A stretch of DNA of 64,000 nt from an uncultured Candidatus Saccharibacteria bacterium (GCA_964419675.1 CAYQPN010000001.1:100480-164479), one strand, 5' to 3'; counted from the stretch's first letter, positions 3,513 through 39,676 are shown. The notes: a model not told the origin generated them from the letters alone. Translations and numbers: made by a program.

Positions 3513-3546
3513 AACCACCCCCGAAAATGGGGTGTTTTTAGTTGTT
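3513..3546. terminator. Rho-independent terminator hairpin after tRNA-Gln (possibly bidirectional)
   Basis: The sequence is aaaaCCACCCCcgaaaatGGGGTGttttt: a 6-7 bp GC stem, a 7-nt loop, a downstream T-run and an upstream A-run. Confidence 0.5.
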
Positions 3547-3676: not shown

Positions 3677-4114
3677 TTTTGAAATTTTTTGCAAAAGGTC
3701 GTTATTATTAACGTCTTTAATCTTTCACCGATGTTCCTAGTCTCCAAGACCCTGATTATAATGTATGTGTTTTGAATGACCGATTTGGATAAGTTTATTA
3801 ATGTGCTAAAGCTTGTTATAATTATATTTAAATATATGGGGTACAAAAGGCGAGAACTTTTTGACGTAATTCGAGGGTTGAGCCGGGGCGTTAATAAGCT
3901 CGTAACCAACTCCGCTATTGTAGTTCGAAATATTATCATAGTTACCAAAATCTACTTGATACCAATCATAGTAGTCGTACTTGTATGGTTACGCACCACT
4001 ACTGTTTATATTGATGAACACTACTGGAGTCCACAACGTAAAAGATTGATTTTGAAATTTAAACCCTTGCAGAGATGGGATGCATGGGCATACCGACCAC
4101 AGGCAAGAAAATCC

Positions 4115-7100
4115 ATGGAGTTAATGCTAGCAGTCCTATTTATCAGCTCGATATTTCAGGCAGCGCTCCAGGCAGCTCCCGATCTTAATGATGACTGGGA
4201 TTTGGCTAATGCGGTTGACTATACCTATGATTCAGGAATAGAGATGGTGTCTGGTGTTGCACGGCTTAAGACTCAAAATTATGAAAACGACGCCGATACA
4301 AGGGCGCTATACCACTTTGATGAATCCGGAGGTATCAACGCTTCTGATAGTTCGTCAAACAGCAATAATGCAACAATTTCAGGGGGCAGTTTTGTAGCAG
4401 GGAGCTTGAATAATGCAGTTTCGCTTGACGGCATTGACGACACAGTAACTGCACCTAACAGTGCAAGCCTGCAACTCGGTCAACAGCACACCATTGAGGC
4501 TTGGACTAAGTTTAATAATAATTTCGATAGCACCTCTCACGACCGAAGAAATGCAGTTGTAGATAAGGGAGATTACCAGCTTTACTATGACAATGAAACT
4601 GGTAAGTTAACATATGAAATTGCTAACTCTACGTCATCAAATTGGACACAAACAGCGGGTAGTAACATTGGTGGTAGTTGGGGGACGAACGGCAAGCGAA
4701 GCGTGACGTCCAGTATAGTGATGGGCTCTGATGTTTATGCTGGATTAGGAAATCAGCTTGCTGATGCTGAAGTATGGATGTGGAACGGCAGTGACTGGGA
4801 ACTTGTCGGCGGTGACGGGGTTAACGGTTCTTGGGACGATCAAACATTTGAAGATGTATATTCAATGACAACAGATGGCACTAATCTATATGCCGGACTA
4901 GGAACAACCGCAGGTGATGCCGAAGTATGGCGATGGGATGGAGCCACTTGGACAAAAATTGGGGGCGATGCGGTTAGCAGTAGTTGGCAAGTTAGTACCT
5001 TTGAAACAGTCGGTTCTCTTAACTACTTTGGTTCGAATCTGTACGCTGGTTTGGGCAGTAGCGCGAGCGACGCTGAAGTATGGCGCTGGAACGGCACAAC
5101 TTGGACAAAAATAGGCGGTGACAGCTTGAACAGTGGTTGGGTTGCTGGATATGAGATTGTCTCGGCTCTGGCTGACGACGGCACTAATTTATACGCCGGC
5201 CTAGGAACAACCGCCAACGACGCCGAAGTATGGATGTGGAATGGAACCGCTTGGTCGCAAATTGGCGGTGACAGTTTGAACAGTGGTTGGGCTGCTGGGT
5301 TTGAGGCTGTAAGAGCGATGCGATACATTGCAGGAATTTTATATGCAGGTCTGGGTGATACGGCAGGAGATGCAGATTTATGGTCATGGAACGGGGCTAC
5401 ATGGTCGCAAATTGGCGGTGACGGCCTAAACGGAAGCTGGAATACAAACTATGAAGGCATATATGCAATCGGTACTGACGGAACCGACATTTATGCAGGG
5501 CTGGGTACGGGGAATGGCGACGGAGAAGTGTGGCGACGTAGTGGAGGAAGTTGGTCGCAAATTGGTGGCGATGGCCTAAACGGAAGCTGGACCACAAACT
5601 TTGGGGACACGGTATATACGCTTCCTAATAATGGCACTACTGTTTATGCCGGAATTTACGACACGGCGGGAGGTGGCTACTTATACTCTTGGAACGGCAC
5701 AACTTGGACCACTCTCGGTGGACAATACATAAATAATAGTTGGGGTTATTACGGGCAAGGTTCTGTGGAAGTACTTCAAGTGTCTGGGGAGTATCTATAC
5801 GCCGGCCTTGGTTCAGCAAGTGGGTCAGCACAGATATGGCGTCTAAGCGGGAGTACCTGGAGTTTAGTTGGTGGTCAAGGAATAAACAATAGCTGGCCAG
5901 CGAATACATATGAGCAAGTTTCTAGTATGAGTAGCCACGAGGGTAACTTGTATGTCGGGCTGGGTACTACAGCCAACGACAGTGAAGTATGGATGTGGAA
6001 CGGCACCACGTGGTCGCAAATTGGTGGTGACAGCTTAAATAGCGGTTGGACTACCAATTTTGAAGAGGTAAACTCACTCGCTAGCTTTAATGGTGATTTG
6101 TACGCGGGCTTAGGTAATAGCAATAACGATGCTGAAGTATGGCGGTGGAACGGCGCAACCTGGACAAAAATAGGTGGCGACAGCCTGAACAGTGGTTGGA
6201 CTACCAACTATGACAGAGTAAGTTCATTGGCGGTTTATAAAGGTAATTTAATTGCTGGTCTCGGAGCAGGAGCCGGAGAGGCTGAACTGTGGCAGTGGAA
6301 CGGCGCAGCTTGGTCAAAAATAGGTGGCGATAGCCTGAACAGTAGCTGGGATAGTACTTTTGAGCAGATAGAAGCACTGATTCAATTTAACAATAAGCTG
6401 TATATAGGTCTTGGAAACACTGCGGGTGACGGCGAAGTGTGGGAACTTGATGATACAACGTGGACCAAGATTGGAGGCGACGACTTAAATAATAGTTGGG
6501 CAGACGGTACTTATGAAAGGGTACGCACCCTAGCTACTTACAACGGTGATTTATTTGCAGGCCTTGGTAGCGGAACTGGCGAAGGAGAAGTCTGGAGATA
6601 CTCGGCCGGAAGTTGGACTAAAGTGGGTGGTAATAGCGTCAATACTTCTTGGGGTAACACCATGGAAGAGGTTGAATCTTTTAGTACTTACCAAGGTAAG
6701 CTTTACGCTGGGACTGGCAACACCGCCAATGCGGATGCAACCGTGTGGTCGCTTGGTGATAATGGTTACCTGCAATCAACAACCAGTAGTTTCAACACAG
6801 ACTGGCGTCACGTGGCTGCTTCGTACAACGGCAGTACGATGAGAATTTATATTAACGGCACACTCGAAAATTCACTGTCAAAAACGTTTAGTGTAGCAAC
6901 TAGTAATCGTGACTTACTCATTAGTACAGGATATGGTGGTCGTGAATACGGTAAACCACAGGCAAGATTTCAGGGACTTATTGATGAGGTGCGTCTAAGC
7001 AGTGTTAGCCGGTCGTCGTTTACTACCAGCCCATATGCGAGTTCACCGCAGTCCCTAAGGCCACAAGACAGTGTGAGAAAAAATGGCGTATGGCACTGGG

Positions 7101-9940
7101 ACACATTTAGCCATAATGAAACCCCTAACGGCGGATCGGTTAACTATAGGCTATCGTCCGACGAAGGCACCACATGGCTATTCTGGGACGGCTTAGCATG
7201 GTCGCAATCAAATAGCCTTACCGAGGCAAATACAGTCGCTGTTATAACTGCTAACTTTGACGAGTTCCCTGTGACATTTGACGGAATGCTCTGGCAGGCA
7301 GTTCTTAGTGGCAATGGGTCACAGCAAGTTATTCTTGACGGTGTAAACGCTGATGCAACTTCTGACACCATCGACCCAACTTCCAACCCGTCGAACATAG
7401 TCGCCTACAAGGCAAACGGGGGTACTGTACTTGCTCAAGACGATTGGACAAATGGCGGGTCACCCTACTTTACCTGGGATGTCGGTGATGACGCCGAATC
7501 AGAAGTGAAGGGTTATTGTGCGTATCTAGGAACTGATGAGCTAGCGGATCCAGTGACAACCAAAGGGCTACTGGGTAATAGCCCAGCTCCAACAGGTGAT
7601 AACTGTCAGTTTATGGTGACTGGAACTTCACTTGACCTAGCAACTCCAGGACTCTTATCAACACCACTCTCAACAACAAACGACACCTACTATCTAAACT
7701 TGCGGACAATTGATAATGCCGGCAATGTCACCAACACCTCTTCTCAATTTTCATTTAGGTTTGATAATACGATGCCAACGAATCCCGGCTACATTACCGC
7801 ACCTTCGGGCTTTATAAACACAAAAGACGTCTCAATGTCATGGCCAACTATAGGCGGTAGTGCACCAAGTGACAGCAATTCAGGATTAGTCGGGCTTCAG
7901 TATCGAATCGGCGCGGGCGGTACATGGTACGGGGATGGTCATACGGGGCTTGGCGACATGGCTGATTTGCTGAACAATGACGGAGAATACAATACTCTAG
8001 AAACTCCCGACTATGCCTCACTCATTGAAGGAATTAACACAGTCTACTTTAGAACGTGGGATTTGGCTGGTAACGTATCTACAACATATGTAACAGCAAC
8101 TCTCAAAATTAACACCAGTGGTGCACCGAGTGTACCGAACAACCTAGTTGCAACACCGACGACAAACACTGCTAACTCCTTTGGATTTAATTGGGATGCT
8201 CCGACGACGTTTATTGGTGACGAGAATAACATTACTTACTGCTACACAATCAATACACTTCCTTCACCGTCATCTTGTGCGTATACAGGCCCCGGCTCAA
8301 CAGAGCTAACCGTAGGCGCATATGCAACACAACCCGGATTAAACACCATGTACATAGCTGCTCGAGATGAGTCTAGCAACATCAACTACGATAATTATGC
8401 TTCCACAGGATTTACAGCTGACACCCCGTCTCCGGGAGTGCCATTAAATACTGACCTTGTAGACGTATCAATAAAAAATACCAGCAACTGGAGGCTAGCG
8501 CTCACATGGGATGTGCCTACATACACCGGTGGTGGTATCAATAATTACCGAATCTTTAGGTCTACAGACAACATTACATTTAATCAAGTCGGAACGAGTT
8601 CAAGCACTACATACATTGACGCCGGTCTAAGCCAGCAAACCTATTACTACAATATTTCAGCTTGTGACAATACAAATAACTGTGGCGCATCTGGTACAAC
8701 GGTGAGTGGCTTTCCTACCGGTAAATTCACAAGCCCTGCCACGCTTATCGACGGACCAGCTACTAGCGACATTACAACTAAACGAGCAAAAGTCAGCTGG
8801 ACAACTGACCGAGCAAGCGATTCGAAAGTACAAATTGGTACACAAAGTGGCGAATATAGCCCATCCGAGGTTGGTAATTCAGATCAAACATCGGTTCATG
8901 AAATTTCTCTGGACAATTTGTCGCCAGGAACAACCTACTACTTAAAAGTAAAATGGACAGACGAGGACGGAAACACAGGCACTAGCTCAGAGCAGACATT
9001 CACGACCGCCCCAGCACCTTCAATTATAGAGCTAGAAGTAACCGGAGTCGGTCTTGGCAGTGCGGGACTTGCCTTTACAACTCGGGGTGCCACAAAGGCT
9101 ACTGTCTACTACGGTACTAGCGAATCGTTTGGCGGGCTAAAAACGGTGAATACTGCAACTGTAGAGTCGCGCTATCAGGTAGAATTAGACGATTTGACCG
9201 ACGGCACAAAATACTACTACATGGTAAGTACCTACGACCAAGAAGGCGCAGAATACAGAGGCAATGTCGGCTCGTTCTCCACGCCACCTCGACCAAGAAT
9301 AACTAATCTTAGGTTCCAACCTGTTGCAGGAGAGCCAACAAGTACCCAGCAGGTAACATGGGACACAAACGTTCCAAGTAGTAGTCAGGTTACCTACAAT
9401 ATTGTTAACGGAACCCCAATTGAAGTACAGGACTCTAGCCTAGTAACTTCTCATGAAATTGTCATACGTAATCTAAGTGATGACAGTGAATATGTTCTTA
9501 CGGCCCTAAGCCGTGATGCGTCAGGAAATTCTACAACTTCAGATAGGCAAGTTTTCCGAACAGCACTTGATACCAGACCTCCAAAAGCCACAGATGTTGT
9601 CGTTGAATCTTCTATTAGGGGTTCCGGTTCAGAGGCTCGTGGCCAAATAGTAGTCTCGTGGCGCACGGACGAACCATCGACAAGCCAAGTTGCGTATGCT
9701 GAAGGTTCAGACGCTGTAACCTTTAACAGCAAGACGGTTGAGGACACGATACTTACGACCGAGCACCTAGTCATTATTTCTGATTTGCCAACTTCTCGAG
9801 TCTTTAGTGTCCAGCCCCTTTCAAAAGACTCTGCAGGCAATGAAGGTCAAGGAGAAACTCAGACCGCCATTATTGGACGGGCATCAGACAGTGCTATTAC
9901 CGTCGTATTCAATACACTTAAAGCGATATTTGGATTATAA
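4115..9940 (+). CDS. Giant secreted repeat protein: about 20 tandem ~45-50-aa beta-propeller-like repeats, a LamG/concanavalin-like domain and multiple Fn3-like domains
   Basis: The ORF is open from 3776 (2054 aa). The likely start is the ATG at 4115 (MELMLAVLFISSIFQAALQAAP, signal-peptide-like). The upstream 113 codons are AT-rich and non-protein-like. The repeat consensus is …NLYAGLGTTANDAEVWRWNGTTWTKIGGDSLNSGW…. The LamG motif is DWRHVAASYNGSTMRIYINGTLENS. Fn3-like signatures include TTYYLKVKWTDEDGNTG and TKYYYMVSTYDQEG. Confidence 0.8.
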   Translation: MELMLAVLFISSIFQAALQAAPDLNDDWDLANAVDYTYDSGIEMVSGVARLKTQNYENDADTRALYHFDESGGINASDSSSNSNNATISGGSFVAGSLNNAVSLDGIDDTVTAPNSASLQLGQQHTIEAWTKFNNNFDSTSHDRRNAVVDKGDYQLYYDNETGKLTYEIANSTSSNWTQTAGSNIGGSWGTNGKRSVTSSIVMGSDVYAGLGNQLADAEVWMWNGSDWELVGGDGVNGSWDDQTFEDVYSMTTDGTNLYAGLGTTAGDAEVWRWDGATWTKIGGDAVSSSWQVSTFETVGSLNYFGSNLYAGLGSSASDAEVWRWNGTTWTKIGGDSLNSGWVAGYEIVSALADDGTNLYAGLGTTANDAEVWMWNGTAWSQIGGDSLNSGWAAGFEAVRAMRYIAGILYAGLGDTAGDADLWSWNGATWSQIGGDGLNGSWNTNYEGIYAIGTDGTDIYAGLGTGNGDGEVWRRSGGSWSQIGGDGLNGSWTTNFGDTVYTLPNNGTTVYAGIYDTAGGGYLYSWNGTTWTTLGGQYINNSWGYYGQGSVEVLQVSGEYLYAGLGSASGSAQIWRLSGSTWSLVGGQGINNSWPANTYEQVSSMSSHEGNLYVGLGTTANDSEVWMWNGTTWSQIGGDSLNSGWTTNFEEVNSLASFNGDLYAGLGNSNNDAEVWRWNGATWTKIGGDSLNSGWTTNYDRVSSLAVYKGNLIAGLGAGAGEAELWQWNGAAWSKIGGDSLNSSWDSTFEQIEALIQFNNKLYIGLGNTAGDGEVWELDDTTWTKIGGDDLNNSWADGTYERVRTLATYNGDLFAGLGSGTGEGEVWRYSAGSWTKVGGNSVNTSWGNTMEEVESFSTYQGKLYAGTGNTANADATVWSLGDNGYLQSTTSSFNTDWRHVAASYNGSTMRIYINGTLENSLSKTFSVATSNRDLLISTGYGGREYGKPQARFQGLIDEVRLSSVSRSSFTTSPYASSPQSLRPQDSVRKNGVWHWDTFSHNETPNGGSVNYRLSSDEGTTWLFWDGLAWSQSNSLTEANTVAVITANFDEFPVTFDGMLWQAVLSGNGSQQVILDGVNADATSDTIDPTSNPSNIVAYKANGGTVLAQDDWTNGGSPYFTWDVGDDAESEVKGYCAYLGTDELADPVTTKGLLGNSPAPTGDNCQFMVTGTSLDLATPGLLSTPLSTTNDTYYLNLRTIDNAGNVTNTSSQFSFRFDNTMPTNPGYITAPSGFINTKDVSMSWPTIGGSAPSDSNSGLVGLQYRIGAGGTWYGDGHTGLGDMADLLNNDGEYNTLETPDYASLIEGINTVYFRTWDLAGNVSTTYVTATLKINTSGAPSVPNNLVATPTTNTANSFGFNWDAPTTFIGDENNITYCYTINTLPSPSSCAYTGPGSTELTVGAYATQPGLNTMYIAARDESSNINYDNYASTGFTADTPSPGVPLNTDLVDVSIKNTSNWRLALTWDVPTYTGGGINNYRIFRSTDNITFNQVGTSSSTTYIDAGLSQQTYYYNISACDNTNNCGASGTTVSGFPTGKFTSPATLIDGPATSDITTKRAKVSWTTDRASDSKVQIGTQSGEYSPSEVGNSDQTSVHEISLDNLSPGTTYYLKVKWTDEDGNTGTSSEQTFTTAPAPSIIELEVTGVGLGSAGLAFTTRGATKATVYYGTSESFGGLKTVNTATVESRYQVELDDLTDGTKYYYMVSTYDQEGAEYRGNVGSFSTPPRPRITNLRFQPVAGEPTSTQQVTWDTNVPSSSQVTYNIVNGTPIEVQDSSLVTSHEIVIRNLSDDSEYVLTALSRDASGNSTTSDRQVFRTALDTRPPKATDVVVESSIRGSGSEARGQIVVSWRTDEPSTSQVAYAEGSDAVTFNSKTVEDTILTTEHLVIISDLPTSRVFSVQPLSKDSAGNEGQGETQTAIIGRASDSAITVVFNTLKAIFGL

Positions 9941-10708
9941 ATGAAAGTTGAAAACCTTTTTTCTGTCAATAATTTAACACTCGAATTCGAGGTTGGAGAA
10001 CAGCACGTTATAGCGGTTAACAACGCCACTGTAAGCATCCCGGATAAAAAAATAACTATCATCTACGGTGCGTCAGGAAGTGGAAAATCCAGTTTGTTAA
10101 ACGTTATCTCGGGCCTGCAACCACCATCTAGGGGGAAGCTACTTTACCGTGGTAACAATATCTATAATCAGTCCGCAAACGAACTAGCATTCTTTCGTGC
10201 ACACGAACTGGGCATTGTTTATCAGACAAACTACTGGGTGAAAAGCCTAACTGTGCTCGAAAATGTGGCACTGCCACTATACTTTCTTGGATACACAAAG
10301 GCAGACGCGCATAAACACGCCAAAGATGCTTTAAGCAGAGTAGGAATGTCAAAATATATTAGTAAACTGCCAGTATTGTTATCGGGTGGTGAACAGCAAC
10401 GTATTGCAATGGCCCGCGCCATAGCCAGTAATCCACCGGTTATCATTGCTGATGAGCCGACCGGAAACCTAGACAGCATAAACGGTGACAAGATTATTGA
10501 TTTATTACGTCAGCTTAACAGGGATGAGGGCAAGACAGTTATTTTGGTCACACATAATATGGAATATATTTCCATGGCTCACCATTTGCTGGAAATAGAG
10601 GACGGGCAAGTAACCGAAATTGATAAAGAAAATATTGCAAAGACGGTCAAGGTGATGCTCGGTGATGCGCAAAAACGAATCACGAAACATATGGAGGCCT
10701 CACGATGA
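9941..10708 (+). CDS. ABC transporter ATP-binding protein, MacB/LolD-like
   Basis: It has Walker A GASGSGKSS, the signature LSGGEQQRIAMARA and Walker B IIADEPTGNLD. Its ATG directly abuts the TAA of the giant gene. Confidence 0.9.
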   Translation: MKVENLFSVNNLTLEFEVGEQHVIAVNNATVSIPDKKITIIYGASGSGKSSLLNVISGLQPPSRGKLLYRGNNIYNQSANELAFFRAHELGIVYQTNYWVKSLTVLENVALPLYFLGYTKADAHKHAKDALSRVGMSKYISKLPVLLSGGEQQRIAMARAIASNPPVIIADEPTGNLDSINGDKIIDLLRQLNRDEGKTVILVTHNMEYISMAHHLLEIEDGQVTEIDKENIAKTVKVMLGDAQKRITKHMEASR

Positions 10709-11931
10709 AAAGGCGCAAGGTCACGGATAAAGCCACAGTTCAGACGGGTATTCTTGCATCAATTGCTCTTAGTAACCTTACTCATAAAAAGCTACGAACA
10801 GGCTTAACTGTTTTTGGTATAGCCATAGGTATTGGTGCAATTTACTTTCTACTTTCTTTCGGCATTGGCCTGCAAAGACTTGTAACAAACGAAGTTATTG
10901 GCAACCAATCTATAAAGACTATAGACGTTGTAAGTTCAAACTCAAATATCGTCAAACTTGACGACACCGCAACCCAACGCGTTACACAAATACCTAACGT
11001 AATTGAGACGGGCAAGGCATACTATTTCCCTGGTAGCTTCAAAATTAGTGGTAGCGAGTCTGACAGCATTGTCTATGGGGTTGATACTGGCTATCAAAAT
11101 TTAACACACCTGAATTTAATTGAAGGCAAACTGCTTAAAGACACAGAAGAACAAAGCGGGGTAGTAATCAACAAAGCAGCGCTAGAAGCTATAGGCTTAG
11201 CGGGCAATCCAAGCGAAGTCATAAACAAGACGGTCAGTGTAATCGTGCCTCTTTCAAAAATTGATTCAGCTCTAGGTACATTTACTGAAGAATTTGTAAT
11301 TGTCGGAATCATAGATTCTGGAAGCGGTTCAGAAATTTTCATATCAAGTGCCATGTTTAAGGACAAAGGCGTGCCCTACCTTACTCAACTTAAGGTTGGC
11401 ACAAGGGAAGTTACAGACATACAAGTTATCCGTTCGCAAATTGAAAGCTTTGGATTTGAAACATCCTCGCCGGTAGATACCTTGGAGGAAATTAATAACG
11501 TATTCCGCTTTCTCAACTACATTTTGGTTGGGTTTGGAGGAATCGGAATGATTGTTGCTGTGCTTGGTATGTTTAACACGCTTACCATTTCACTTCTAGA
11601 GCGAACCAAAGAGATAGGACTTATGGTGGCGCTTGGTGCGCGGTCAATCGACATGAAGCGTCTCTTTATTTTTGAAGCCCTATTCTTGTCACTATTTGGT
11701 TCGGTGCTGGGAATCACTGGCGCTTTCATAATCGGCAGAGTCGTAAATACTGTTATGAACATTCTGGCATCCGGTAGGGGTGTGCAAGACAGTTTTGAAC
11801 TGTTTGCTAATCCGCCACTTCTTATCATAGGAATGCTAGCTTTTATGGTTGCTGTCGGGTTAGCGGTTGTATATTTGCCCGCAAGGCGCGCGCAAAGAAT
11901 TAACCCAATTGATGCACTTAGACGAGAGTAG
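10705..11931 (+). CDS. ABC transporter permease, FtsX/MacB-type (N-terminal TM, large extracytoplasmic domain, C-terminal 3-TM FtsX domain)
   Basis: 408 aa with an ATGA start/stop overlap with the ATPase gene. The C-terminal FtsX-like segment ends …YLPARRAQRINPIDALRRE. Confidence 0.85.
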   Translation: MKRRKVTDKATVQTGILASIALSNLTHKKLRTGLTVFGIAIGIGAIYFLLSFGIGLQRLVTNEVIGNQSIKTIDVVSSNSNIVKLDDTATQRVTQIPNVIETGKAYYFPGSFKISGSESDSIVYGVDTGYQNLTHLNLIEGKLLKDTEEQSGVVINKAALEAIGLAGNPSEVINKTVSVIVPLSKIDSALGTFTEEFVIVGIIDSGSGSEIFISSAMFKDKGVPYLTQLKVGTREVTDIQVIRSQIESFGFETSSPVDTLEEINNVFRFLNYILVGFGGIGMIVAVLGMFNTLTISLLERTKEIGLMVALGARSIDMKRLFIFEALFLSLFGSVLGITGAFIIGRVVNTVMNILASGRGVQDSFELFANPPLLIIGMLAFMVAVGLAVVYLPARRAQRINPIDALRRE

Positions 11932-12052
11932 TCGGTTCACAGTACAGTTTAGTGTTAGGTTAGAACCAGCGTTTTGTTATAAAATAGGCTCGTCTATCAG
12001 TCACAGTCCCTGCAAAGCGGGCGACTGGATTGAGATGGTAATTCATCCCACA

Positions 12053-12070
12053 ATCCCAGCCAATTAAAAC
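12053..12070 (+). repeat. Third partial copy of the tRNA-Gln 3' end plus downstream flank (atcccagccaaTtaaaac vs atcccagccaaCtaaaac at 3498..3515)
   Basis: 17 of 18 nt are identical and the match extends past the tRNA CCA end. The upstream ~100 nt (11950..12052) are homologous to the arm element 3548..3654. Confidence 0.55.
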
Positions 12071-12157
12071 AATCTTTACGAGTTACCCCATCTATGATAA
12101 TTTAGGTTTTTTATAGTATATCCATTCATACAATCAAGTCCTATAATTATAAATAAC

Positions 12158-12367
12158 ATGTATGTATTAGTTGATGAAACTGGTGAACTAGAGTCTACTA
12201 CTAAAGATGGGTTAGGAATTTGTACCCTAGTAATGATCAATGATAAAAGCTGGAATAAATTTAACAAATTTTTATTAAAAAACGAAATAGACCCTAAATT
12301 TCAAAAATCCAGTAACCTAAAGTTTGATAAAAGAAAAATAATTACAAATTATATCTCTAGTAATTGA
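12158..12367 (+). CDS. Hypothetical protein (69 aa) in a very AT-rich block; N-terminal VLVDETGE resembles the DUF3800-type N-terminal motif
   Basis: ORF only. It is in the same frame as 12512..13108 and separated from it by stops, so it may be a decayed single gene. Confidence 0.3.
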   Translation: MYVLVDETGELESTTKDGLGICTLVMINDKSWNKFNKFLLKNEIDPKFQKSSNLKFDKRKIITNYISSN

Positions 12368-12511
12368 GGTATATACTATTATGCTATTTGCCACGACCCT
12401 GTTTACTATGATTTAGAATCTATAAAGAATCACAAAATAGAACAAGCTAGCAGAGTTGATAAGTTTATAAAATCAGACACAGACACTAAAAAAGAAATTA
12501 GAGCGAAAAAC

Positions 12512-13108
12512 TTGCTAATATTTCGAAACCAATATCGCAACTTAACGAATCCAGACTTTATAAAACTCACAATGATTACTGAAGCTTTTATGAAATGGTT
12601 TGAATATTTTCAGTTTGACATAGACAATTTTCCAAACAATGATGATAACTGGCATTTTTTTCATAGAATTGATACGCAAAACAAGCCTGAGAAATTCAAG
12701 CGATTATTGACTGGTTACATTAAAATGACCATTCATCCAGCTGCAAATAATGGGATATCAATAAAGTATAACAGCGACATTTCTTTGAGACACCCGTTTC
12801 ACAAAAATAATGCAGGAAAAGATGGTTATGCTGACCCAAATATATTTCTTGAAGATATAAAAATTACTACTGAAACAGTAACTCCCCAGTTATTTTTACC
12901 AGATTTCTTTGGCAACACTTTTTTTCGAGCTTTCAAAACAAATGAAGAAAAATATTTAAGTTTAGCAAAAAACTTAGGTCAAAGAAGAATGAAAGCAATG
13001 AAGTTTAGGCCAAATAATAAGTATATTCTAAAAGTAATTAGTTTTGATGATAAAAAAGTGCGTGTAAATAAAAAACTTGAAGATTTTTTAATATCTACGA
13101 AGCAATGA
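12512..13108 (+). CDS. Hypothetical protein (198 aa), AT-rich accessory block
   Basis: Long ORF in an AT-rich region (~25-30% GC by eye). No recognisable motifs. Confidence 0.4.
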   Translation: MLIFRNQYRNLTNPDFIKLTMITEAFMKWFEYFQFDIDNFPNNDDNWHFFHRIDTQNKPEKFKRLLTGYIKMTIHPAANNGISIKYNSDISLRHPFHKNNAGKDGYADPNIFLEDIKITTETVTPQLFLPDFFGNTFFRAFKTNEEKYLSLAKNLGQRRMKAMKFRPNNKYILKVISFDDKKVRVNKKLEDFLISTKQ

Positions 13109-13249
13109 TCGACCGGCGCAATATAGCACGCGTCTAAGGCCGCGTGTGATCACGCTGTTTAATCAGTTGTTGCCGAAAATGTGTTAGTGCTAAATTATAT
13201 ATCATAAGTTACGGTATATAATGTAACCTATAAATAGGAGTAAACCGTT

Positions 13250-14125
13250 TTGCAGTCAAATCAATGTGTATCTTGTATTGCAAACTCAATTACTGATTCT
13301 TGGTACATTCTGCTCAATAACTTATATGAAATTGCTCAAAACTATGATAATGCCAATCAAGAAAATACTTCGACTGTAGATAATTACGCGACCAGGATTA
13401 CTATAGGAATTATAAATTCATCTTTCATGAACCTTTGTACAGGTGTTCACGAAAACGGAAAAAATAATTTTGAGTCGTTTATGTGCATTTCACGAAATGT
13501 TCTTGAAAGGCTTTCGAATATAAACTATCTCAACTCTAAACCGGAAAATAGAATTAAATACTCAAAAATATTAAAAAATAATGAACGTGATATTTGTGAA
13601 CTTTACTTGCCTGCGGACCCGATTAAAAAATCAACAGAATGGAAATCTCAAAAGTGGACTAATATAAGCCAGGAAAAACGTATAAATGCTTTATCTAGTA
13701 AACAACATATTCTTCTATATGGATATTATTCGAGGGTACTACACACATTAAATATTGATATTTTACTTAAAGATGAAATGAATATGACTTTTATAAAGAT
13801 CTACACACTTCTAGAATTAGTTATATCATATAACACTGTACTTTCTGTTTATCACGAAAATTCCGATGAGTATAATGCCATAAAAACTAAACACAAAGAA
13901 TTTAACAATTTACTAAATTTTACATGGATGAACAAGAATTTATCTCTCAACTCAATTATTTTGTTGACAACTTTTTACGATGATAAAAGAGACAAAAGAA
14001 ACTCTAAAGTTCTCAAATTATACTTAAAAGCTTTAAAAGGGTCTCAAAAAAGTATGACATTTCCAGAATTTGTATATGTTAAACATGATTTATCTTTTAA
14101 ACATAATAATGAGACAATACACTAA
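13250..14125 (+). CDS. Hypothetical protein (291 aa), AT-rich accessory block
   Basis: Long ORF with a TTG start, preceded by AGGAG 11 nt upstream. No recognisable family. Confidence 0.45.
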   Translation: MQSNQCVSCIANSITDSWYILLNNLYEIAQNYDNANQENTSTVDNYATRITIGIINSSFMNLCTGVHENGKNNFESFMCISRNVLERLSNINYLNSKPENRIKYSKILKNNERDICELYLPADPIKKSTEWKSQKWTNISQEKRINALSSKQHILLYGYYSRVLHTLNIDILLKDEMNMTFIKIYTLLELVISYNTVLSVYHENSDEYNAIKTKHKEFNNLLNFTWMNKNLSLNSIILLTTFYDDKRDKRNSKVLKLYLKALKGSQKSMTFPEFVYVKHDLSFKHNNETIH

Positions 14126-19333: not shown

Positions 19334-19923
19334 ATGAATGCCCTCAGATATACTAATGTGAATATAAAGATCCAAACTATATCTAAGAAGTGCCAGTACA
19401 GACTTAACATTGCTAGTTTACGTAGTAAGTGTTTGTCTAGTCCTCTTTTGATGACAAAAATAAGTGTGATTCCCATCCATAACAAACCAAAGGTTATGTG
19501 TAACCCGTGGGTTCCGACAAGAACAAAAAAGGAAGACAAAAATGCATTGACCGTAAGGGTATGTCCCTCATGTGCAAGCTCGATAAATTCAAAAAGCTCT
19601 AGGCCCAAGAAAGCCAGCCCGAGTATAAAGGTAATTAAAAACCAGAGGAGGGTTTGGGACTTCTTGCCCCCGCGCGCTGCAAGCATAGCTATACCAGCGG
19701 TAAAGCTACTCGTAAGTAGTAATAGTGTGCCAGTTAATGCGATTGGAAGGCTGAATAACTCTTTTCCTGATTCTCCTCCATTCGTATTGTTATGAAGCAC
19801 AGAATAGACCGCAAACAATATTCCGAACATTAGAAGGTCAGTCATTAGATACACCCAGAATCCAAACATTGCTCTGTCGTTTGCTGCTTCTTCGTGGTGG
19901 TTTAACTCATTATTTTCTACCAT
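19330..19923 (-). CDS. cyoC: Heme-copper quinol oxidase subunit III
   Basis: 197 aa with 5 TM helices and CyoC/COX3-like conservation (…HLVDIVWIF-like C-terminus). Confidence 0.85.
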   Translation of the reverse strand: MVENNELNHHEEAANDRAMFGFWVYLMTDLLMFGILFAVYSVLHNNTNGGESGKELFSLPIALTGTLLLLTSSFTAGIAMLAARGGKKSQTLLWFLITFILGLAFLGLELFEFIELAHEGHTLTVNAFLSSFFVLVGTHGLHITFGLLWMGITLIFVIKRGLDKHLLRKLAMLSLYWHFLDIVWIFIFTLVYLRAFI

Positions 19924-22019
19924 TTACGCCATCCTTTTGTTCTAAGCACCTTCCAAAAGAACGACAACACAGTTATGACTAATTGCCAAACACCCATTTC
20001 TTCTGATTCTTCAAATGATTCAATAGATTTTGCTTGCAACTTTTTAGCTCTTGATTCTTCATGCTTTTGTACCTCTGCGGCACTTAGTTCATATTCAACG
20101 TTGTCATCAAATGTACGTCTAACAAATACTACAATTATGCCTATTAAGGATACGGCCGCCAGCCAATTTATATGCCAAACAAAAGCTAAGCCTAAGAAAA
20201 ATGCCCATATTGAAATGTAAATTCCGGCTGCCGTATTTTTGGGCATATGAATGTCTTCATAAACTGGCTTATCTAAACTTTTTTGCTTCATATTCCAATA
20301 AGCATCTCTAGTACTAATTTGTGGGACAACCGCAAAATTGTAAAACGGTGGTACTGGTGGGGTGGACCATTCCAGAGTTCGGCCATTCCAAGGGTCACCA
20401 CTCATATCCCGATATCGATTCTTCTGAATAAGCGTTGCTACAATTTGTGCTAACTGCATTGCAACAGCAATCATGATGATCACTCCGCCTATGAACATTA
20501 ATACAAAAAGCGGTTGCCAACCTGTGGATGCGTCGTAGTGATCCATTCTTCTTGTTGCACCCATGAAGCCTAAAATAAACATTGGGATAAACGACAAACT
20601 AAAACCAGTAATCCATAGCCAGAAAGCGTTTCTTCCGATACGTTCGTTTAACTTGTAGCCACTAAATTTAGGAAACCAGTAATTAATACCAGCAAAAATT
20701 CCGAATAACACGCCACCAATTACAGTGCTATGGAAGTGTGCTACCAAAAACAGGCTATTGTGTAGCTGAAAATCGACGGGTGGCACTGCTAGCAAAACTC
20801 CGGTCAAGCCGCCTATTGTAAATATACCCGCAAAGCCTAAGAACCAAAGCATCGGTGTTTTGAAGCTTATCCGACCTTTGTACATAGTTGCCATCCATGA
20901 AAAAACTAGAATAGTTGTAGGGATTGCAATTAAGATAGTCATTGTCCCGAAAAAAGCATTAACGTTTGCTCCCGCTCCCATAGTGAAAAAGTGATGAAGC
21001 CAAACAGATAAAGCAAGTGCTGCTACCCCAATCAATCCAACTACGTTTGATTTGTACATCGCGACTGCTTTACGACTAAAGGTTGACACAATTTCAGAAA
21101 ATGCTCCGTAAGCAGGCAAAATTAATATGTAAACCTCTGGGTGCCCCCACATCCAAATCAAGTTGGTGTACATCATTGGGTCACCTCCACCCATTGTCGT
21201 GAAGAAATGGGTTCCCAAATATCGATCAAAAAACATCAAGAACAGAGTCATGGTTAGAAGAGGGAAGACTGTAGCTGCCATAATCATGCTGCACAGAGAA
21301 CCCCATGTAAATAATGGCATTTTAAGTAGGCTCATACCAGGTGCGCGCATCTTAAGTATCGTCATTATGAAGTTAATTGCTCCAAGGGTAGTACCGATAC
21401 CCGAAATTTGCAGACTCCAAATCCAATAATCAACCCCAACTCCCGGGCTAAACTCCGTCCCAGATAATGGGGCAACAGCAAGCCAACCTGTTGCTGCGTA
21501 TTCTCCCCCAAGAAAGAAGAACATGTTGACCATGATTACACCTGCTACGTAGAGCCAAAATCCCAAGGTGTTGAGGAAAGGTGATGCCAAATCACGAGCC
21601 CCTATTTGAAGCGGAACAATATAATTAATTAGTCCAAATATAAAAGCCATAGCCACAAAGAAAACCATTATGTTGCCATGAGCTGTAAAGATTTGCTGAA
21701 AGTGGTCTGCTGTCAAGTAGCCTGTGGCAGATTCTCCAATTCCGACAGTTGGTGCAAGGGCTTGTTGAAGCCAAAGCATTATGGCGTCGAGGCCTCCACG
21801 AATAAGCATGAATCCACCAACGACAAAATACATAATTCCAATTTTTTTGGGATCAACAGATGTCAACCATTCGTCCCATAGCCATCTCCAGCGTTTCTTT
21901 TTGGTTATGACAAGTACTATTAGTAGCAGCAGCGCTATGAATGCAACCGAACCACCAATTGTGAACCATTCATGTGGCAGAGATTTTAGGTCTAGTTTGC
22001 CTAGAAAGAATTCTCTCAT
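19917..22019 (-). CDS. cyoB: Heme-copper quinol oxidase subunit I
   Basis: 700 aa with classic COX1/CyoB motifs (…WFFGHPEVYIL…, HHMF…). Confidence 0.9.
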   Translation of the reverse strand: MREFFLGKLDLKSLPHEWFTIGGSVAFIALLLLIVLVITKKKRWRWLWDEWLTSVDPKKIGIMYFVVGGFMLIRGGLDAIMLWLQQALAPTVGIGESATGYLTADHFQQIFTAHGNIMVFFVAMAFIFGLINYIVPLQIGARDLASPFLNTLGFWLYVAGVIMVNMFFFLGGEYAATGWLAVAPLSGTEFSPGVGVDYWIWSLQISGIGTTLGAINFIMTILKMRAPGMSLLKMPLFTWGSLCSMIMAATVFPLLTMTLFLMFFDRYLGTHFFTTMGGGDPMMYTNLIWMWGHPEVYILILPAYGAFSEIVSTFSRKAVAMYKSNVVGLIGVAALALSVWLHHFFTMGAGANVNAFFGTMTILIAIPTTILVFSWMATMYKGRISFKTPMLWFLGFAGIFTIGGLTGVLLAVPPVDFQLHNSLFLVAHFHSTVIGGVLFGIFAGINYWFPKFSGYKLNERIGRNAFWLWITGFSLSFIPMFILGFMGATRRMDHYDASTGWQPLFVLMFIGGVIIMIAVAMQLAQIVATLIQKNRYRDMSGDPWNGRTLEWSTPPVPPFYNFAVVPQISTRDAYWNMKQKSLDKPVYEDIHMPKNTAAGIYISIWAFFLGLAFVWHINWLAAVSLIGIIVVFVRRTFDDNVEYELSAAEVQKHEESRAKKLQAKSIESFEESEEMGVWQLVITVLSFFWKVLRTKGWRKW

Positions 22020-38357: not shown

Positions 38358-38569
38358 ACTTTTAATTAACCATCGTAGACTGCTATAATTAGCAATATTA
38401 ACAATTAAACATATAAAGAGTGTGGAGTAGGGATCTAGCCCGCAAATACCACCAGCAACCGGCAATTATGCAAAGGTGCTAAATCTAGCCCGACTTGGTT
38501 GGGGAAGATATTTGCTACACATTAGTAAGCCTTTCTTGACCATCGGTGGCCATAAGAAAGGTTTTTTTG

Positions 38570-39676
38570 ATGTCATACAAATTATTTACAAGTGAGTCAG
38601 TAGCTGCCGGGCACCCAGATAAAATTGCAGACGCAATTAGTGATGCTATTTTAGATGCAATTCTAGAGCAAGACCCTCATGCACGGGCCGGACTCGAAAC
38701 TATTGTTGGTGCTAATAAAGTTGGGCTGTTTGGCGAAATTAAGACTAGCGCAAAAGTTAACTTTAAAGAAGTAACCAAAAAAGAGATTAGAAGATTAGGT
38801 TATACAAACACTGATTGGAACTTTTCAGACAAATCTCCGATTGAAGTAAATATTCACCAACAATCACCAGAAATAGCCATGGGAGTTGACCTAGATGGTG
38901 CTGGCGATCAAGGTATGATGTTTGGCTTTGCGTGTAACGAAACTCCAGAGCTGATGCCTCTTCCGATTACACTTGCCCACGCTCTTACAAGAGCCCTAGA
39001 CGAGTCCCGAGAAAGTGGGGCTATTTCTTTTGTAAGACCTGATGGTAAGAGTCAAGTAACGGTTGCGTATGAAGACGGCAAACCTGTTGCTGTTGAAAAG
39101 GTTGTAATGGCTTTGGCGCACGATGAAAAAACTTCTCCTGATGAAGTTCATAAAGTAATTAAAGAGAAAATCATAGACGAAGTTATGAAAAAATATGGCT
39201 ATAGCGTGTCGGACAAACAGGTTGTGATAAACGGCACTGGGCTGTGGCACATTCCTGGTCCTGATACTGACGCCGGCTTAACGGGTAGAAAAATTGTTGT
39301 TGACGGATACGGTGGCTACGCAAGAGTTGGTGGTGGGGCGTTTTCAGGCAAAGACCCAAGTAAGGTTGACCGCTCTGGAGCGTACGCAGCCCGCTACATT
39401 GCTAAAAACGTAGTAGCAGCAGGTCTAGCCGAAAAATGCGAAGTAGCACTAGCCTACGTAATCGGTAGGGCAGACCCAATGATGAAGGCCTTTGATACTT
39501 TTGGCACTGAAACAGATTCAATAGAAAACATCCAAAAATTCATTGATAGGTTGCTTGATACGTCGGTGAAGGGAATTGTAGATGGCTTAAACCTTCGAAG
39601 GCCAATATACAGTTCCACAACGGCCTACGGCCACTTCGGCAAAAAAGATTTGCCATGGGAACAAATATCTAAATAG
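38570..39676 (+). CDS. metK: S-adenosylmethionine synthetase
   Basis: …LFTSESVAAGHPDKIADAISDAILDAILEQDP…, GGGAFSGKDPSKVDRSGAY. Confidence 0.9.
   Translation: MSYKLFTSESVAAGHPDKIADAISDAILDAILEQDPHARAGLETIVGANKVGLFGEIKTSAKVNFKEVTKKEIRRLGYTNTDWNFSDKSPIEVNIHQQSPEIAMGVDLDGAGDQGMMFGFACNETPELMPLPITLAHALTRALDESRESGAISFVRPDGKSQVTVAYEDGKPVAVEKVVMALAHDEKTSPDEVHKVIKEKIIDEVMKKYGYSVSDKQVVINGTGLWHIPGPDTDAGLTGRKIVVDGYGGYARVGGGAFSGKDPSKVDRSGAYAARYIAKNVVAAGLAEKCEVALAYVIGRADPMMKAFDTFGTETDSIENIQKFIDRLLDTSVKGIVDGLNLRRPIYSSTTAYGHFGKKDLPWEQISK

What the first reader, a model, noticed from the sequence alone, without database searches (positions are those of the whole stretch)
3776..11931. Giant repeat/LamG/Fn3 surface protein translationally coupled to a MacB/FtsX-type ABC transporter
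A 1941-2054-aa secreted protein carries about 20 tandem ~45-50-aa repeats (consensus NLYAGLGTTANDAEVWRWNGTTWTKIGGDSLNSGW; a beta-propeller-blade-like Trp/Gly spacing that I cannot assign to a named repeat family). These are followed by a LamG_3-type lectin domain and several Fn3/PAPN-like domains. Its stop codon abuts the ATG of a MacB-like ATPase (TAAATG), and that gene overlaps an FtsX-domain permease (ATGA), so the three are one operon. MacB/FtsX transporters act by mechanotransmission on extracytoplasmic partners. Pairing one with a giant adhesin-like protein suggests a dedicated surface-display, remodelling or host-attachment system. That would be relevant if the organism is an epibiont.
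Basis: partly seen in the sequence, partly recalled or inferred. Interest (0 to 1): 0.6.

Follow-up and report, generated by a model that had tools for sequence, protein, structure and literature searches.

The report
Giant stalked surface protein with ABC partner
A 2,054-residue surface protein of a Saccharibacteria-type ultra-small bacterium, built as a lectin domain with two propellers inserted in it on a long stalk, is almost always encoded next to its own MacB-type ABC motor, and relatives with other heads keep the same stalk, tail motif and ABC neighbour, which points to an undescribed way these bacteria handle large surface proteins.

Summary
The three ORFs and their junctions (TAAATG, ATGA) are real. 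Some details need correcting. There are 14 Kelch-like blades of 50-51 aa, not about 20, and they most likely form two seven-bladed propellers. The propellers are inserted inside a split LamG domain rather than preceding it. Translation starts upstream of Met-4115: homologs share a leader of about 110 aa, then a hydrophobic segment and a conserved signal-peptidase-type site. About nine Ig/Fn3-like domains and a nearly invariant C-terminal helix follow.

The protein is a full-length, evenly conserved ortholog family in Saccharimonadia. In 72 of 73 evaluable species loci the ATPase and permease follow it directly, and flanking genes differ wherever I looked.

A natural head swap (DUF2341 replacing LamG+propellers) keeps the stalk, tail and ABC. 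Paralogous and distant relatives keep a MacB-type ABC neighbour despite changed gene order or an ATPase-permease fusion. All share a C-terminal motif ending in FG[FL].

My best reading is that a type VII ABC transporter handles Sec-exported stalked lectin-like proteins through that tail. The physical contact, the mode of action and any role in host attachment are untested. I found no description of this module in the searched literature.

The parts
3679..3708 (+). Best sigma-70-like promoter match upstream of the operon (TTGAAA-18-TATTAT). A terminator-like hairpin at 3516-3534 follows tRNA-Gln.
   Evidence: 10 of 12 matches. This is a consensus match only; the number of sites in the region equals the shuffle expectation.
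3776..9940 (+). Giant cargo gene (2054 aa from ATG 3776). ATG 3836 (MGYKRR...) is an alternative start that resembles the starts of homologs P0006 and P0020.
   Evidence: An identical 2054-aa protein exists in the public collection (P0001).
4025..4111 (+). Conserved basic, Trp-rich motif just before the hydrophobic segment (aa 84-112). In most homologs it is His-rich: RPH..L..R..WY.KWH.WKYH.HVH.
   Evidence: Column counts over 120 homologs. This shows that translation starts upstream of Met-4115.
4112..4180 (+). Hydrophobic segment (aa 113-135) ending in a signal-peptidase-I-type site LQA|APDL. Cleavage after Ala133 is predicted, not shown.
   Evidence: Hydropathy. Position -1 is Ala in 115 of 120 homologs, and -3 is V/T/A/L/I in 113 of 120.
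4220..4657 (+). N-terminal half of a split LamG (Laminin_G_3) jelly-roll domain, aa ~149-294.
   Evidence: AF2 strands. The in-silico excision construct matches Laminin_G_3 positions 1-146 of 151 at 79.5 bits.
4700..6775 (+). Fourteen four-stranded Kelch-like blades (aa ~309-1000), most likely two seven-bladed propellers, inserted in the LamG domain.
   Evidence: Repeat register. AF2 pLDDT 91.3 with 14 x 4 strands. The best PDB matches are tandem seven-bladed propellers. Repeat relatives pass Kelch_4 and Kelch_6 thresholds in the same blades.
6776..7063 (+). C-terminal half of the split LamG domain (aa ~1001-1096).
   Evidence: Pfam Laminin_G_3 at aa 975-1080, profile positions 45-146.
7064..9874 (+). 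Stalk of about nine beta-sandwich (Ig/Fn3-like) domains, aa ~1097-2033. It includes the Fn3/Pur_ac_phosph_N hit at aa 1664-1745 (nt 8765-9010).
   Evidence: AF2 pLDDT 86.6 with pTM 0.42, i.e. beads on a string. Foldseek matches to titin/MyBP-C, contactin, gp130, fibronectin and the GhpA neck and base. Pfam.
9881..9937 (+). Conserved C-terminal tail ...IIGRASDSAITVVFNTLKAIFGL-COOH. AF2 predicts a terminal helix (aa 2039-2052) with low confidence.
   Evidence: Nearly invariant among orthologs. The motif regex hits 118 of 120 orthologs at the extreme C-terminus, against 3 internal hits in 407,721 aa. It is shared by head-swapped and distant cargos.
9941..10708 (+). ABC ATPase, 255 aa, with intact Walker A (GASGSGKS), signature (LSGGE), Walker B (IIADE) and H-loop (LVTH).
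   Evidence: The nearest solved relatives are MJ0796, YtrE, YbbA and LolD.
10705..11931 (+). Type VII (MacB/FtsX-fold) permease, 408 aa: TM1, MacB_PCD extracytoplasmic domain, then TM2-4. A GGAGG Shine-Dalgarno sequence lies 8 nt upstream.
   Evidence: The best solved sequence relative is B. subtilis YtrF (9o9x, E=7e-27, full length).

Best explanation
This is a dedicated cargo-plus-transporter module of Saccharimonadia (Patescibacteria/CPR).

The cargo is a Sec-exported protein of about 210 kDa. It has a lectin-type head (a LamG jelly roll carrying two inserted Kelch-like propellers), a stalk of about nine Ig/Fn3-like domains, and a conserved hydrophobic C-terminal helix. The two downstream genes encode a type VII (MacB/FtsX-fold) ABC transporter.

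I propose that the transporter acts on the cargo from the outer face of the membrane through the conserved stalk end and tail. The most likely mode is Lol-like: ATP-driven extraction or hand-over of the tail from the outer leaflet, so that the fibre is released to, or threaded through, the cell wall and displayed. Holding and actuating the cargo is the alternative mode.

Shown: the architecture, the conserved linkage, head swapping on a constant stalk+tail+ABC, the shared tail motif, and intact ATPase motifs.
Inferred: Sec export and cleavage, tail-transporter contact, the direction of action, and glycan binding by the head.
For: 1. The giant gene is followed by ATPase and permease in 72 of 73 evaluable species loci. 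In the 73rd the ATPase has moved about 1 kb upstream. Flanking genes differ in every flank inspected.
2. Searching from the permease returns the cargo stalk upstream wherever sequence exists.
3. Locus L088 keeps the permease (67% identity), the ATPase (66%), the stalk (58%) and an almost identical tail, but its head is DUF2341 instead of LamG+propellers.
4. One genome carries two modules, each with its own ABC pair. The second pair is 43% identical to the window's and follows two cargo genes.
5. In distant relatives the linkage survives changes in layout: ATPase-permease-cargo (L100), cargo-permease-ATPase (L101), and a fused ATPase-permease (L098).
6. All these cargos end in the same tail motif, which is essentially absent elsewhere in the proteins.
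7. Identity of the stalk half to the window tracks that of the ATPase and permease (r = 0.92-0.97). The head half does not (r about 0.45).
8. The signal-peptidase-type site is conserved and the ATPase catalytic motifs are intact.
9. From established knowledge of the family (MacB, LolCDE, FtsEX): type VII ABC transporters act on partners or substrates on the outer face of the membrane (review text quoted).
Against: - No direct evidence of contact between tail and transporter. The tail helix has low pLDDT (about 50) and only moderate amphipathicity (muH 0.22-0.47; 5% of shuffles reach the window's value).
- The correlation in point 7 is confounded by phylogeny and by a floor of about 47% identity among blades.
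- One array of cargo genes (L102) shows no ABC gene within the 23.5 kb seen.
- The conserved N-terminal leader is an equally good candidate for the contact site, and its role is unexplained.
- No type VII transporter is known to recognise a C-terminal helix.
Confidence: 0.5

Rival explanations
1. FtsEX-like static complex. The giant protein stays bound to the transporter through its leader/TM or its tail. ATP cycles then change its conformation, so it works as an actuated surface fibre or sensor rather than a released substrate.
For: - Tight coupling of the three genes.
- One cargo gene per ABC pair in the Kelch-giant module.
- A conserved cytoplasmic motif next to the membrane segment, which a cleaved and discarded signal peptide would not need.
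- The gene order partner-ATPase-permease matches Gram-positive MacAB-like operons such as YknXYZ and Spr0693-0695 (my own knowledge; 5xu1 is among the permease's PDB relatives).
Against: - Two or more cargo genes per ABC pair occur in L097 and L102, which looks more like substrates than a fixed subunit.
- The signal-peptidase-type site is conserved in 115 of 120 homologs, so the leader is probably removed.
- The giant protein has no recognisable enzyme domain to regulate.
Confidence: 0.2
2. The transporter does not touch the protein. Instead it moves a lipid-linked or glycan component needed to attach or modify the stalked proteins, for example a wall polymer or glycolipid anchor. The conserved tail would then be the attachment site for another enzyme.
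For: - MacB-type systems do export glycolipids and other small molecules (DevBCA, MacAB; my own knowledge).
- The head and stalk are rich in N-x-S/T and Ser/Thr.
- Glycosyltransferase genes lie near some loci.
Against: - No transferase or sortase-like gene is conserved next to the module, since flanks differ in the loci inspected.
- Each cargo class having its own diverged ABC pair in one genome is easier to explain by protein-specific recognition.
Confidence: 0.12
3. Coincidental or regulatory linkage. The ABC pair is an efflux or antimicrobial-peptide resistance pump (YknYZ/BceAB/YtrEF-like) that merely shares an operon with a structural surface or S-layer-like protein.
For: - The nearest solved relative, YtrEF, belongs to a cell-envelope stress operon of unclear function.
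- NCBIfam gives only sub-threshold generic hits.
Against: - The linkage persists down to 25-30% cargo identity, through gene-order changes, gene fusion and duplication.
- It holds in 72 of 73 loci, with unrelated flanks in those inspected.
- Permeases at 25-27% identity that lack the cargo are clearly different systems.
Confidence: 0.08

Closest known systems
Gram-positive MacAB-like type VII ABC systems (S. pneumoniae Spr0693-0694-0695, B. subtilis YknXYZ, YtrEF)
   Same: Separate ATPase plus a 4-TM FtsX-fold permease with a MacB_PCD extracytoplasmic domain. YtrF and YtrE are the best or near-best solved sequence relatives, and 5xu1 also matches. A partner gene sits directly upstream of ATPase-permease, and the organism has a monoderm-type envelope.
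   Different: The upstream partner is not a HlyD-type membrane fusion protein. It is a 2054-aa lectin/propeller/Ig-stalk protein with a conserved C-terminal tail. No efflux substrate is indicated, and YtrEF itself has no known function.
LolCDE lipoprotein extraction
   Same: A type VII ABC transporter that removes a membrane-embedded anchor of a Sec-exported protein from the outer leaflet. This is the mechanistic analogy I favour. The ATPase scores highest against LolD models, though below their cutoffs.
   Different: No lipobox and no outer membrane. The lolCE model scores 40 bits against a cutoff of 362. The proposed handle is a C-terminal helix, not an N-terminal acyl group.
FtsEX with EnvC, PcsB, CwlO or RipC
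   Same: A type VII ABC transporter that transmits ATP-driven movement to a dedicated extracytoplasmic protein without transporting anything.
   Different: FtsX models score 24-34 bits against cutoffs of 225-255. The extracytoplasmic domain is MacB_PCD type. The partner has no hydrolase or hydrolase-activator domain and is encoded in the same operon.
Type I secretion of giant adhesins (LapA/RTX with HlyB-type ABC)
   Same: A giant repetitive surface protein with an uncleaved C-terminal signal, encoded beside a dedicated ABC transporter.
   Different: The ABC here has the MacB/FtsX fold rather than the HlyB type. There is no membrane fusion protein or TolC and there are no RTX repeats. The cargo has an N-terminal Sec-type leader.
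Tandem-propeller proteins and stalked fibres: PorZ (T9SS), BT4673 sensor domain, GH74 xyloglucanases, GhpA grappling hook
   Same: The head matches tandem seven-bladed propellers, including PorZ, BT4673 and GH74. The stalk matches the GhpA neck and base and other Ig/Fn3 strings.
   Different: These are fold-level resemblances only (8-18% identity across the listed matches, low TM-scores). The propellers here are Kelch-like and inserted into a LamG domain. There is no T9SS C-terminal domain and no catalytic residues were assessed.

Membership tests
Type VII (MacB/FtsX-fold) ABC transporter | Permease with four TM helices and a large extracytoplasmic domain between TM1 and TM2 | tested here: met
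   Pfam MacB_PCD at aa 32-247 (58 bits, cutoff 27) and FtsX at aa 277-401 (67 bits, cutoff 25.5). Hydrophobic segments at 32-57, 266-299, 319-347 and 364-394.
Type VII (MacB/FtsX-fold) ABC transporter | Cognate ABC ATPase with intact catalytic motifs | tested here: met
   ABC_tran 99.8 bits. Walker A, LSGGE, IIADE and LVTH are present.
Type VII (MacB/FtsX-fold) ABC transporter | Mechanotransmission to an extracytoplasmic partner or substrate rather than transmembrane transport | not testable with these tools
   Needs biochemistry or structure of the complex.
Tripartite MacAB-TolC / Gram-positive MacAB-like pump | HlyD-type membrane fusion protein encoded with the pump | tested here: not met
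   No such gene in the operon or its conserved neighbourhood. The upstream gene is the giant protein.
FtsEX | Match to FtsX and FtsE equivalog models at their cutoffs | tested here: not met
   FtsX models 24-34 bits against cutoffs of 225-255. FtsE 183 bits against 264.85.
LolCDE | Match to LolC/E and LolD equivalog models at their cutoffs | tested here: not met
   lolCE 40.4 bits against 362. LolD 196.6 bits against 307.75.
Kelch-repeat beta-propeller | Repeats of about 44-56 aa forming four-stranded blades and recognised by Kelch profiles | tested here: inconclusive
   Four strands per 50-aa unit in the AF2 model. No Kelch Pfam hit on this protein even at E<10. However, proteins matched by the blade profile at E=1e-114 to 1e-155 (P0250, P0257) pass Kelch_6, Kelch_4 and Kelch_3 thresholds, in P0250 in the very blades matched.
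LamG / Laminin_G_3 (concanavalin A-like lectin fold) | Full-length match to the domain profile | tested here: met
   C-half alone 46.4 bits (cutoff 27.6). The two halves joined in silico give 79.5 bits over profile positions 1-146 of 151.
Fn3 / purple-acid-phosphatase N-terminal-type beta sandwich | Profile match above threshold and beta-sandwich fold | tested here: met
   fn3 38.9 bits (cutoff 25) and Pur_ac_phosph_N 41.6 bits (cutoff 30). AF2 and Foldseek show strings of Ig/Fn3 domains.
Type I secretion substrate | HlyB-type ABC plus membrane fusion protein; RTX repeats; no N-terminal signal peptide | tested here: not met
   The ABC is MacB-type, no RTX hit was found, and an N-terminal hydrophobic leader with a peptidase-type site is present.
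Known C-terminal sorting signals (LPXTG/sortase, PEP-CTERM, GlyGly-CTERM, T9SS CTD) and SLH-anchored S-layer proteins | The corresponding motif or domain at the C-terminus, or SLH domains | tested here: not met
   The last 30 residues (QGETQTAIIGRASDSAITVVFNTLKAIFGL) contain no LPXTG and no TM-plus-basic tail. No such Pfam or NCBIfam model hits at E<=0.01.

The most novel reading that the evidence does not exclude
Patescibacteria may have a previously unrecognised surface-protein sorting pathway. In it, a type VII ABC transporter recognises a C-terminal helix signal (...S-x-Phi-x-Phi-Phi-x-x-x-L-x-x-x-F-G-F/L) on Sec-exported stalked proteins with interchangeable lectin-type heads (LamG+double Kelch propeller, or DUF2341). 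The transporter would use ATP to extract, thread or mount them on the cell surface. This would be a functional counterpart of Lol, sortase or T9SS-CTD sorting in bacteria that live attached to other cells.
Probability: 0.35. Interest if true: 0.85.

Novelty: new variant of a known kind. Interest (0 to 1): 0.66.

Why it matters
Saccharibacteria and other CPR bacteria depend on contact with host cells, yet little beyond type IV pili is understood about how their surface is built.

This module is present in at least 252 species-level genomes. It is conserved along its whole 2,000 residues and comes with its own ATP-driven machine.

If the tail is a sorting or anchoring signal read by a MacB-type transporter, two things follow:
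- It would add a new job to the type VII ABC family.
- It would give a sequence tag for finding the displayed surface proteins of CPR genomes. It would also give concrete targets (head, tail, ATPase) for experiments on attachment and envelope assembly.

If the system proves to be purely structural, it remains an unusually clear case of a propeller pair inserted into a lectin domain.

Tried and rejected
1. P0261 (760 aa, propeller blades fused to an FtsX C-terminus) at first looked like independent domain-fusion evidence. It starts mid-blade, has no TM1, and joins at LYAGLG|MFNT to a clade-B-type permease. It is best explained as a deletion or misassembly within the same locus, so I did not count it.
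2. SEML1_0890, the 'fibronectin III' essential gene of the Southlakia Tn-seq study, is only 588 bp and is not this protein.
3. Direct Pfam and PDB sequence searches of the repeat region gave nothing. Tandem Repeats Finder found no DNA repeats.
5. I could not confirm from coordinates that the 14 blades form two rings. That is inferred from the strand count and the top matches.
6. The correlation between stalk and ABC divergence is reported but not relied on. Blades share about 47% identity with each other, which compresses head-half identities.
7. Exact look-ups of the window's own protein gave no record name or organism. The taxonomic assignment rests on the names of homologs and the titles of loci.
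8. Literature searches for Saccharibacteria or Patescibacteria combined with propeller, FtsX, MacB, Kelch, LamG or S-layer found no description of this module.
9. The amphipathicity of the tail is only moderate, so I do not call it a membrane anchor.

Full report
**What is in the window.**
The + strand carries three tightly packed ORFs. A 2054-aa ORF runs from 3776 to 9940. A 255-aa ABC ATPase runs from 9941 to 10708, with its ATG directly after the TAA. A 408-aa permease runs from 10705 to 11931, overlapping as ATGA and preceded by a GGAGG Shine-Dalgarno sequence. Pfam places Laminin_G_3, fn3 and Pur_ac_phosph_N in the giant protein. It places ABC_tran in the second protein and MacB_PCD plus FtsX in the third, all above threshold. 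NCBIfam gives only sub-threshold hits to LolD, FtsE, MacB, LolC/E and FtsX models. The pair is therefore a generic type VII (MacB/FtsX-fold) ABC transporter, not FtsEX or LolCDE. The ATPase keeps Walker A, signature, Walker B and H-loop. The permease has the expected layout of TM1, large loop and TM2-4. Its best solved sequence relative is B. subtilis YtrF (9o9x, E=7e-27), whose function is unknown.

**The repeats.**
The repeat unit is 50-51 aa, with 13 clear copies at aa 320-975 and degenerate units on either side. There is no DNA-level tandem repeat. Pfam and PDB sequence searches do not recognise the region. An AlphaFold2 model of aa 130-1130, built from 65 sequences, is confident (pLDDT 91.3, pTM 0.88). 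It shows 14 consecutive four-stranded units. Its best PDB matches are proteins with two seven-bladed propellers: Elp2, PorZ, Aip1, GH74 xyloglucanases, Utp21 and the BT4673 sensor domain. I therefore read the region as two seven-bladed propellers, but I could not inspect coordinates.

A profile of the 13 blades, searched against 1.84 billion representative proteins, found 2848 proteins at E<=1e-3 and 104 at E<=1e-30. Some strong matches (P0250, P0257) pass Pfam Kelch_6, Kelch_4 or Kelch_3 thresholds, in P0250 in the same blades. The repeat is thus a divergent Kelch-type blade.

**The lectin domain is split.**
Pfam matches only profile positions 45-146 of Laminin_G_3, after the repeats. The model shows a beta-sandwich half before the repeats as well. 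Joining aa 171-288 to aa 994-1090 in silico gives a full-length Laminin_G_3 match (positions 1-146 of 151, 79.5 bits against 46.4). The propeller pair of about 700 residues is therefore an insertion inside the LamG domain.

**The rest of the protein.**
A model of aa 1085-2054 has pLDDT 86.6 and pTM 0.42. It shows about nine beta-sandwich domains in a row and a terminal helix at aa 2039-2052 with low confidence. It matches strings of Ig/Fn3 domains such as titin/MyBP-C, contactin, gp130, fibronectin and the neck and base of the Aureispira grappling-hook protein.

**The N-terminus.**
In 120 homologs the sequence before the hydrophobic segment is present (median about 110 residues). It carries a conserved basic, aromatic and often His-rich motif, so translation begins upstream, at ATG 3776 or 3836. 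After the hydrophobic segment (aa 113-135) there is a well-conserved signal-peptidase-I-type site. Position -1 is Ala in 115 of 120 homologs and -3 is V/T/A/L/I in 113 of 120, followed by (A/L)(P/S)DL..D.W. Cleavage is plausible but unproven. Why the long leader is conserved remains unexplained.

**Distribution and linkage.**
The giant protein has more than 120 full-length relatives at 57-76% identity, and every one that carries a source name belongs to Saccharibacteria or another Patescibacteria group. Conservation is even along the whole length, which is unlike a fast-evolving adhesin. A scan of one genome per species found 252 genomes with a relative. Of the 80 loci fetched plus three earlier ones, 73 had enough downstream sequence, and 72 show ATPase then permease directly after the giant gene. 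In the 73rd the permease follows directly and the ATPase lies about 1 kb upstream on the other strand. Wherever I looked at the flanks, the neighbouring genes were different. Starting instead from the permease leads back to the giant gene. Permeases at only 25-27% identity have no such neighbour. One subclade has a longer permease (678-713 aa) with an unassigned insertion of about 270 aa in the extracytoplasmic domain.

**Head swap and wider family.**
Locus L088 keeps a permease (67% identity), an ATPase (66%), the stalk (58%) and an almost identical tail (AIIGRASDSAITVIFNTLKSIFGL). Its cargo is 1372 aa and has a DUF2341 head instead of LamG+propellers. Searching with that protein revealed a family of DUF2341-headed proteins of about 1400 aa (some also with LamG_3) that share the same stalk. 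Their contexts are:
- In the genome that also has a Kelch-giant module (949,910-bp contig), two such genes are followed by a second ATPase-permease pair, 43% identical to the window's.
- In L098 the cargo is followed by a fused ATPase-MacB_PCD-FtsX protein.
- In L100 the order is ATPase, permease, cargo.
- In L101 the order is cargo, permease, ATPase.
- L102 is an array of at least six cargo genes or fragments. No ABC gene lies within the 23.5 kb seen.

All intact cargos end in the same motif: roughly [ST]-[DE]-S-x-Phi-x-Phi-Phi-x-x-x-[LF]-x-x-x-F-G-[FL], followed by zero to nine residues. A regular expression for it hits 118 of 120 Kelch-giants at the exact C-terminus. It hits only 3 internal positions in 407,721 residues.

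**Interpretation.**
The stalk, the tail and the ABC pair are inherited together, while the head is exchangeable. The linkage survives duplication, reordering and fusion. That is the pattern expected for a transporter that works on these proteins. Because type VII ABC transporters act from the outer face of the membrane, I propose the following sequence. The cargo is exported by Sec. Its hydrophobic C-terminal helix then serves as the handle. The transporter uses ATP to extract or hand over that handle so that the fibre is mounted in or beyond the wall. Holding and actuating the cargo is the main alternative.

The head is built from folds that commonly bind carbohydrates (LamG, Kelch, and double propellers like those of PorZ, GH74 and BT4673). 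Its ligand is unknown. The strong conservation suggests a conserved ligand, such as a wall polymer, rather than host-specific receptors.

**Caveats.**
- There is no evidence of physical contact.
- The tail helix is modelled with low confidence and is only moderately amphipathic.
- The stalk-ABC divergence correlation is confounded by phylogeny and by a floor of about 47% identity among blades.
- An apparent propeller-FtsX fusion protein (P0261) is most likely a deletion or assembly chimera and was discarded.
- The one genetically studied oral Saccharibacterium shows no such protein in its annotation tables. The module may therefore be absent from the reduced, animal-associated lineages, and its link to epibiosis is open.

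**Novelty.**
Type VII ABC transporters with dedicated partners are known. This partner class, the tail motif and the LamG-with-inserted-propellers head are not described in the literature I could search. I rate it a new variant of a known kind.

Noticed in passing
window 38408-38514 (+): A SAM (S-box) riboswitch aptamer (50.2 bits, gathering score 44.4) lies just upstream of the ORF at 38546-39676.
   Followed up: no
window 12001-14000: A stretch directly downstream of the operon is markedly AT-rich (GC 0.30, against about 0.40 elsewhere). It holds two ORFs (12512-13108 and 13250-14125) with no Pfam match. The giant gene itself is GC-richer (0.45-0.48) than its surroundings.
   Followed up: partly
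window 19917-22019 (-): A full-length cytochrome/quinol oxidase subunit I (COX1, E=2.8e-139) is present, suggesting an oxygen-using member of this otherwise metabolically reduced group. PGA_cap, DUF5667 and LssY_C genes lie nearby.
   Followed up: no
L084/L085 10402-18340: In a widely sampled relative, a type IV secretion gene set (TrbC-like pilin, TrbL, PrgI, TraC-like, VirB4-like, CHAP, coupling protein) lies immediately downstream of the trio. This was not seen in the other flanks inspected.
   Followed up: partly
L027 16500-18536; L039 15762-17903: A subclade has a permease of 678-713 aa with an insertion of about 270 aa in the MacB_PCD domain that matches no Pfam family. In L039 the ATPase has moved upstream onto the opposite strand. 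Many record titles for this subclade name Gammaproteobacteria, Bdellovibrionales or other CPR groups, which probably reflects labelling or binning rather than biology.
   Followed up: partly
L102 1434-23537 (CP060223.1): This is a tandem array of at least six stalked cargo genes, including a 2809-aa Kelch-type one. Two of them appear split by frameshifts (1178+524 aa and 1085+427 aa). No ABC gene is visible in the stretch fetched.
   Followed up: partly
P0261 (760 aa): This protein joins propeller blades directly to the last part of an FtsX permease at LYAGLG|MFNT. It is probably a deletion or assembly chimera spanning the cargo and permease genes.
   Followed up: yes
window 4025-4111 and homologs (alignment): The motif just before the hydrophobic segment is His-rich in most homologs (WY.KWH.WKYH.HVH). 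In the window's protein it reads LQRWDAWAYRPQARKS. A conserved cytoplasmic leader on a protein with a peptidase-type cleavage site is unexplained.
   Followed up: partly
L097 1912-10146: Two adjacent cargo genes in one genome have identical last 55 residues, which suggests recent duplication or gene conversion of the stalk end and tail.
   Followed up: no
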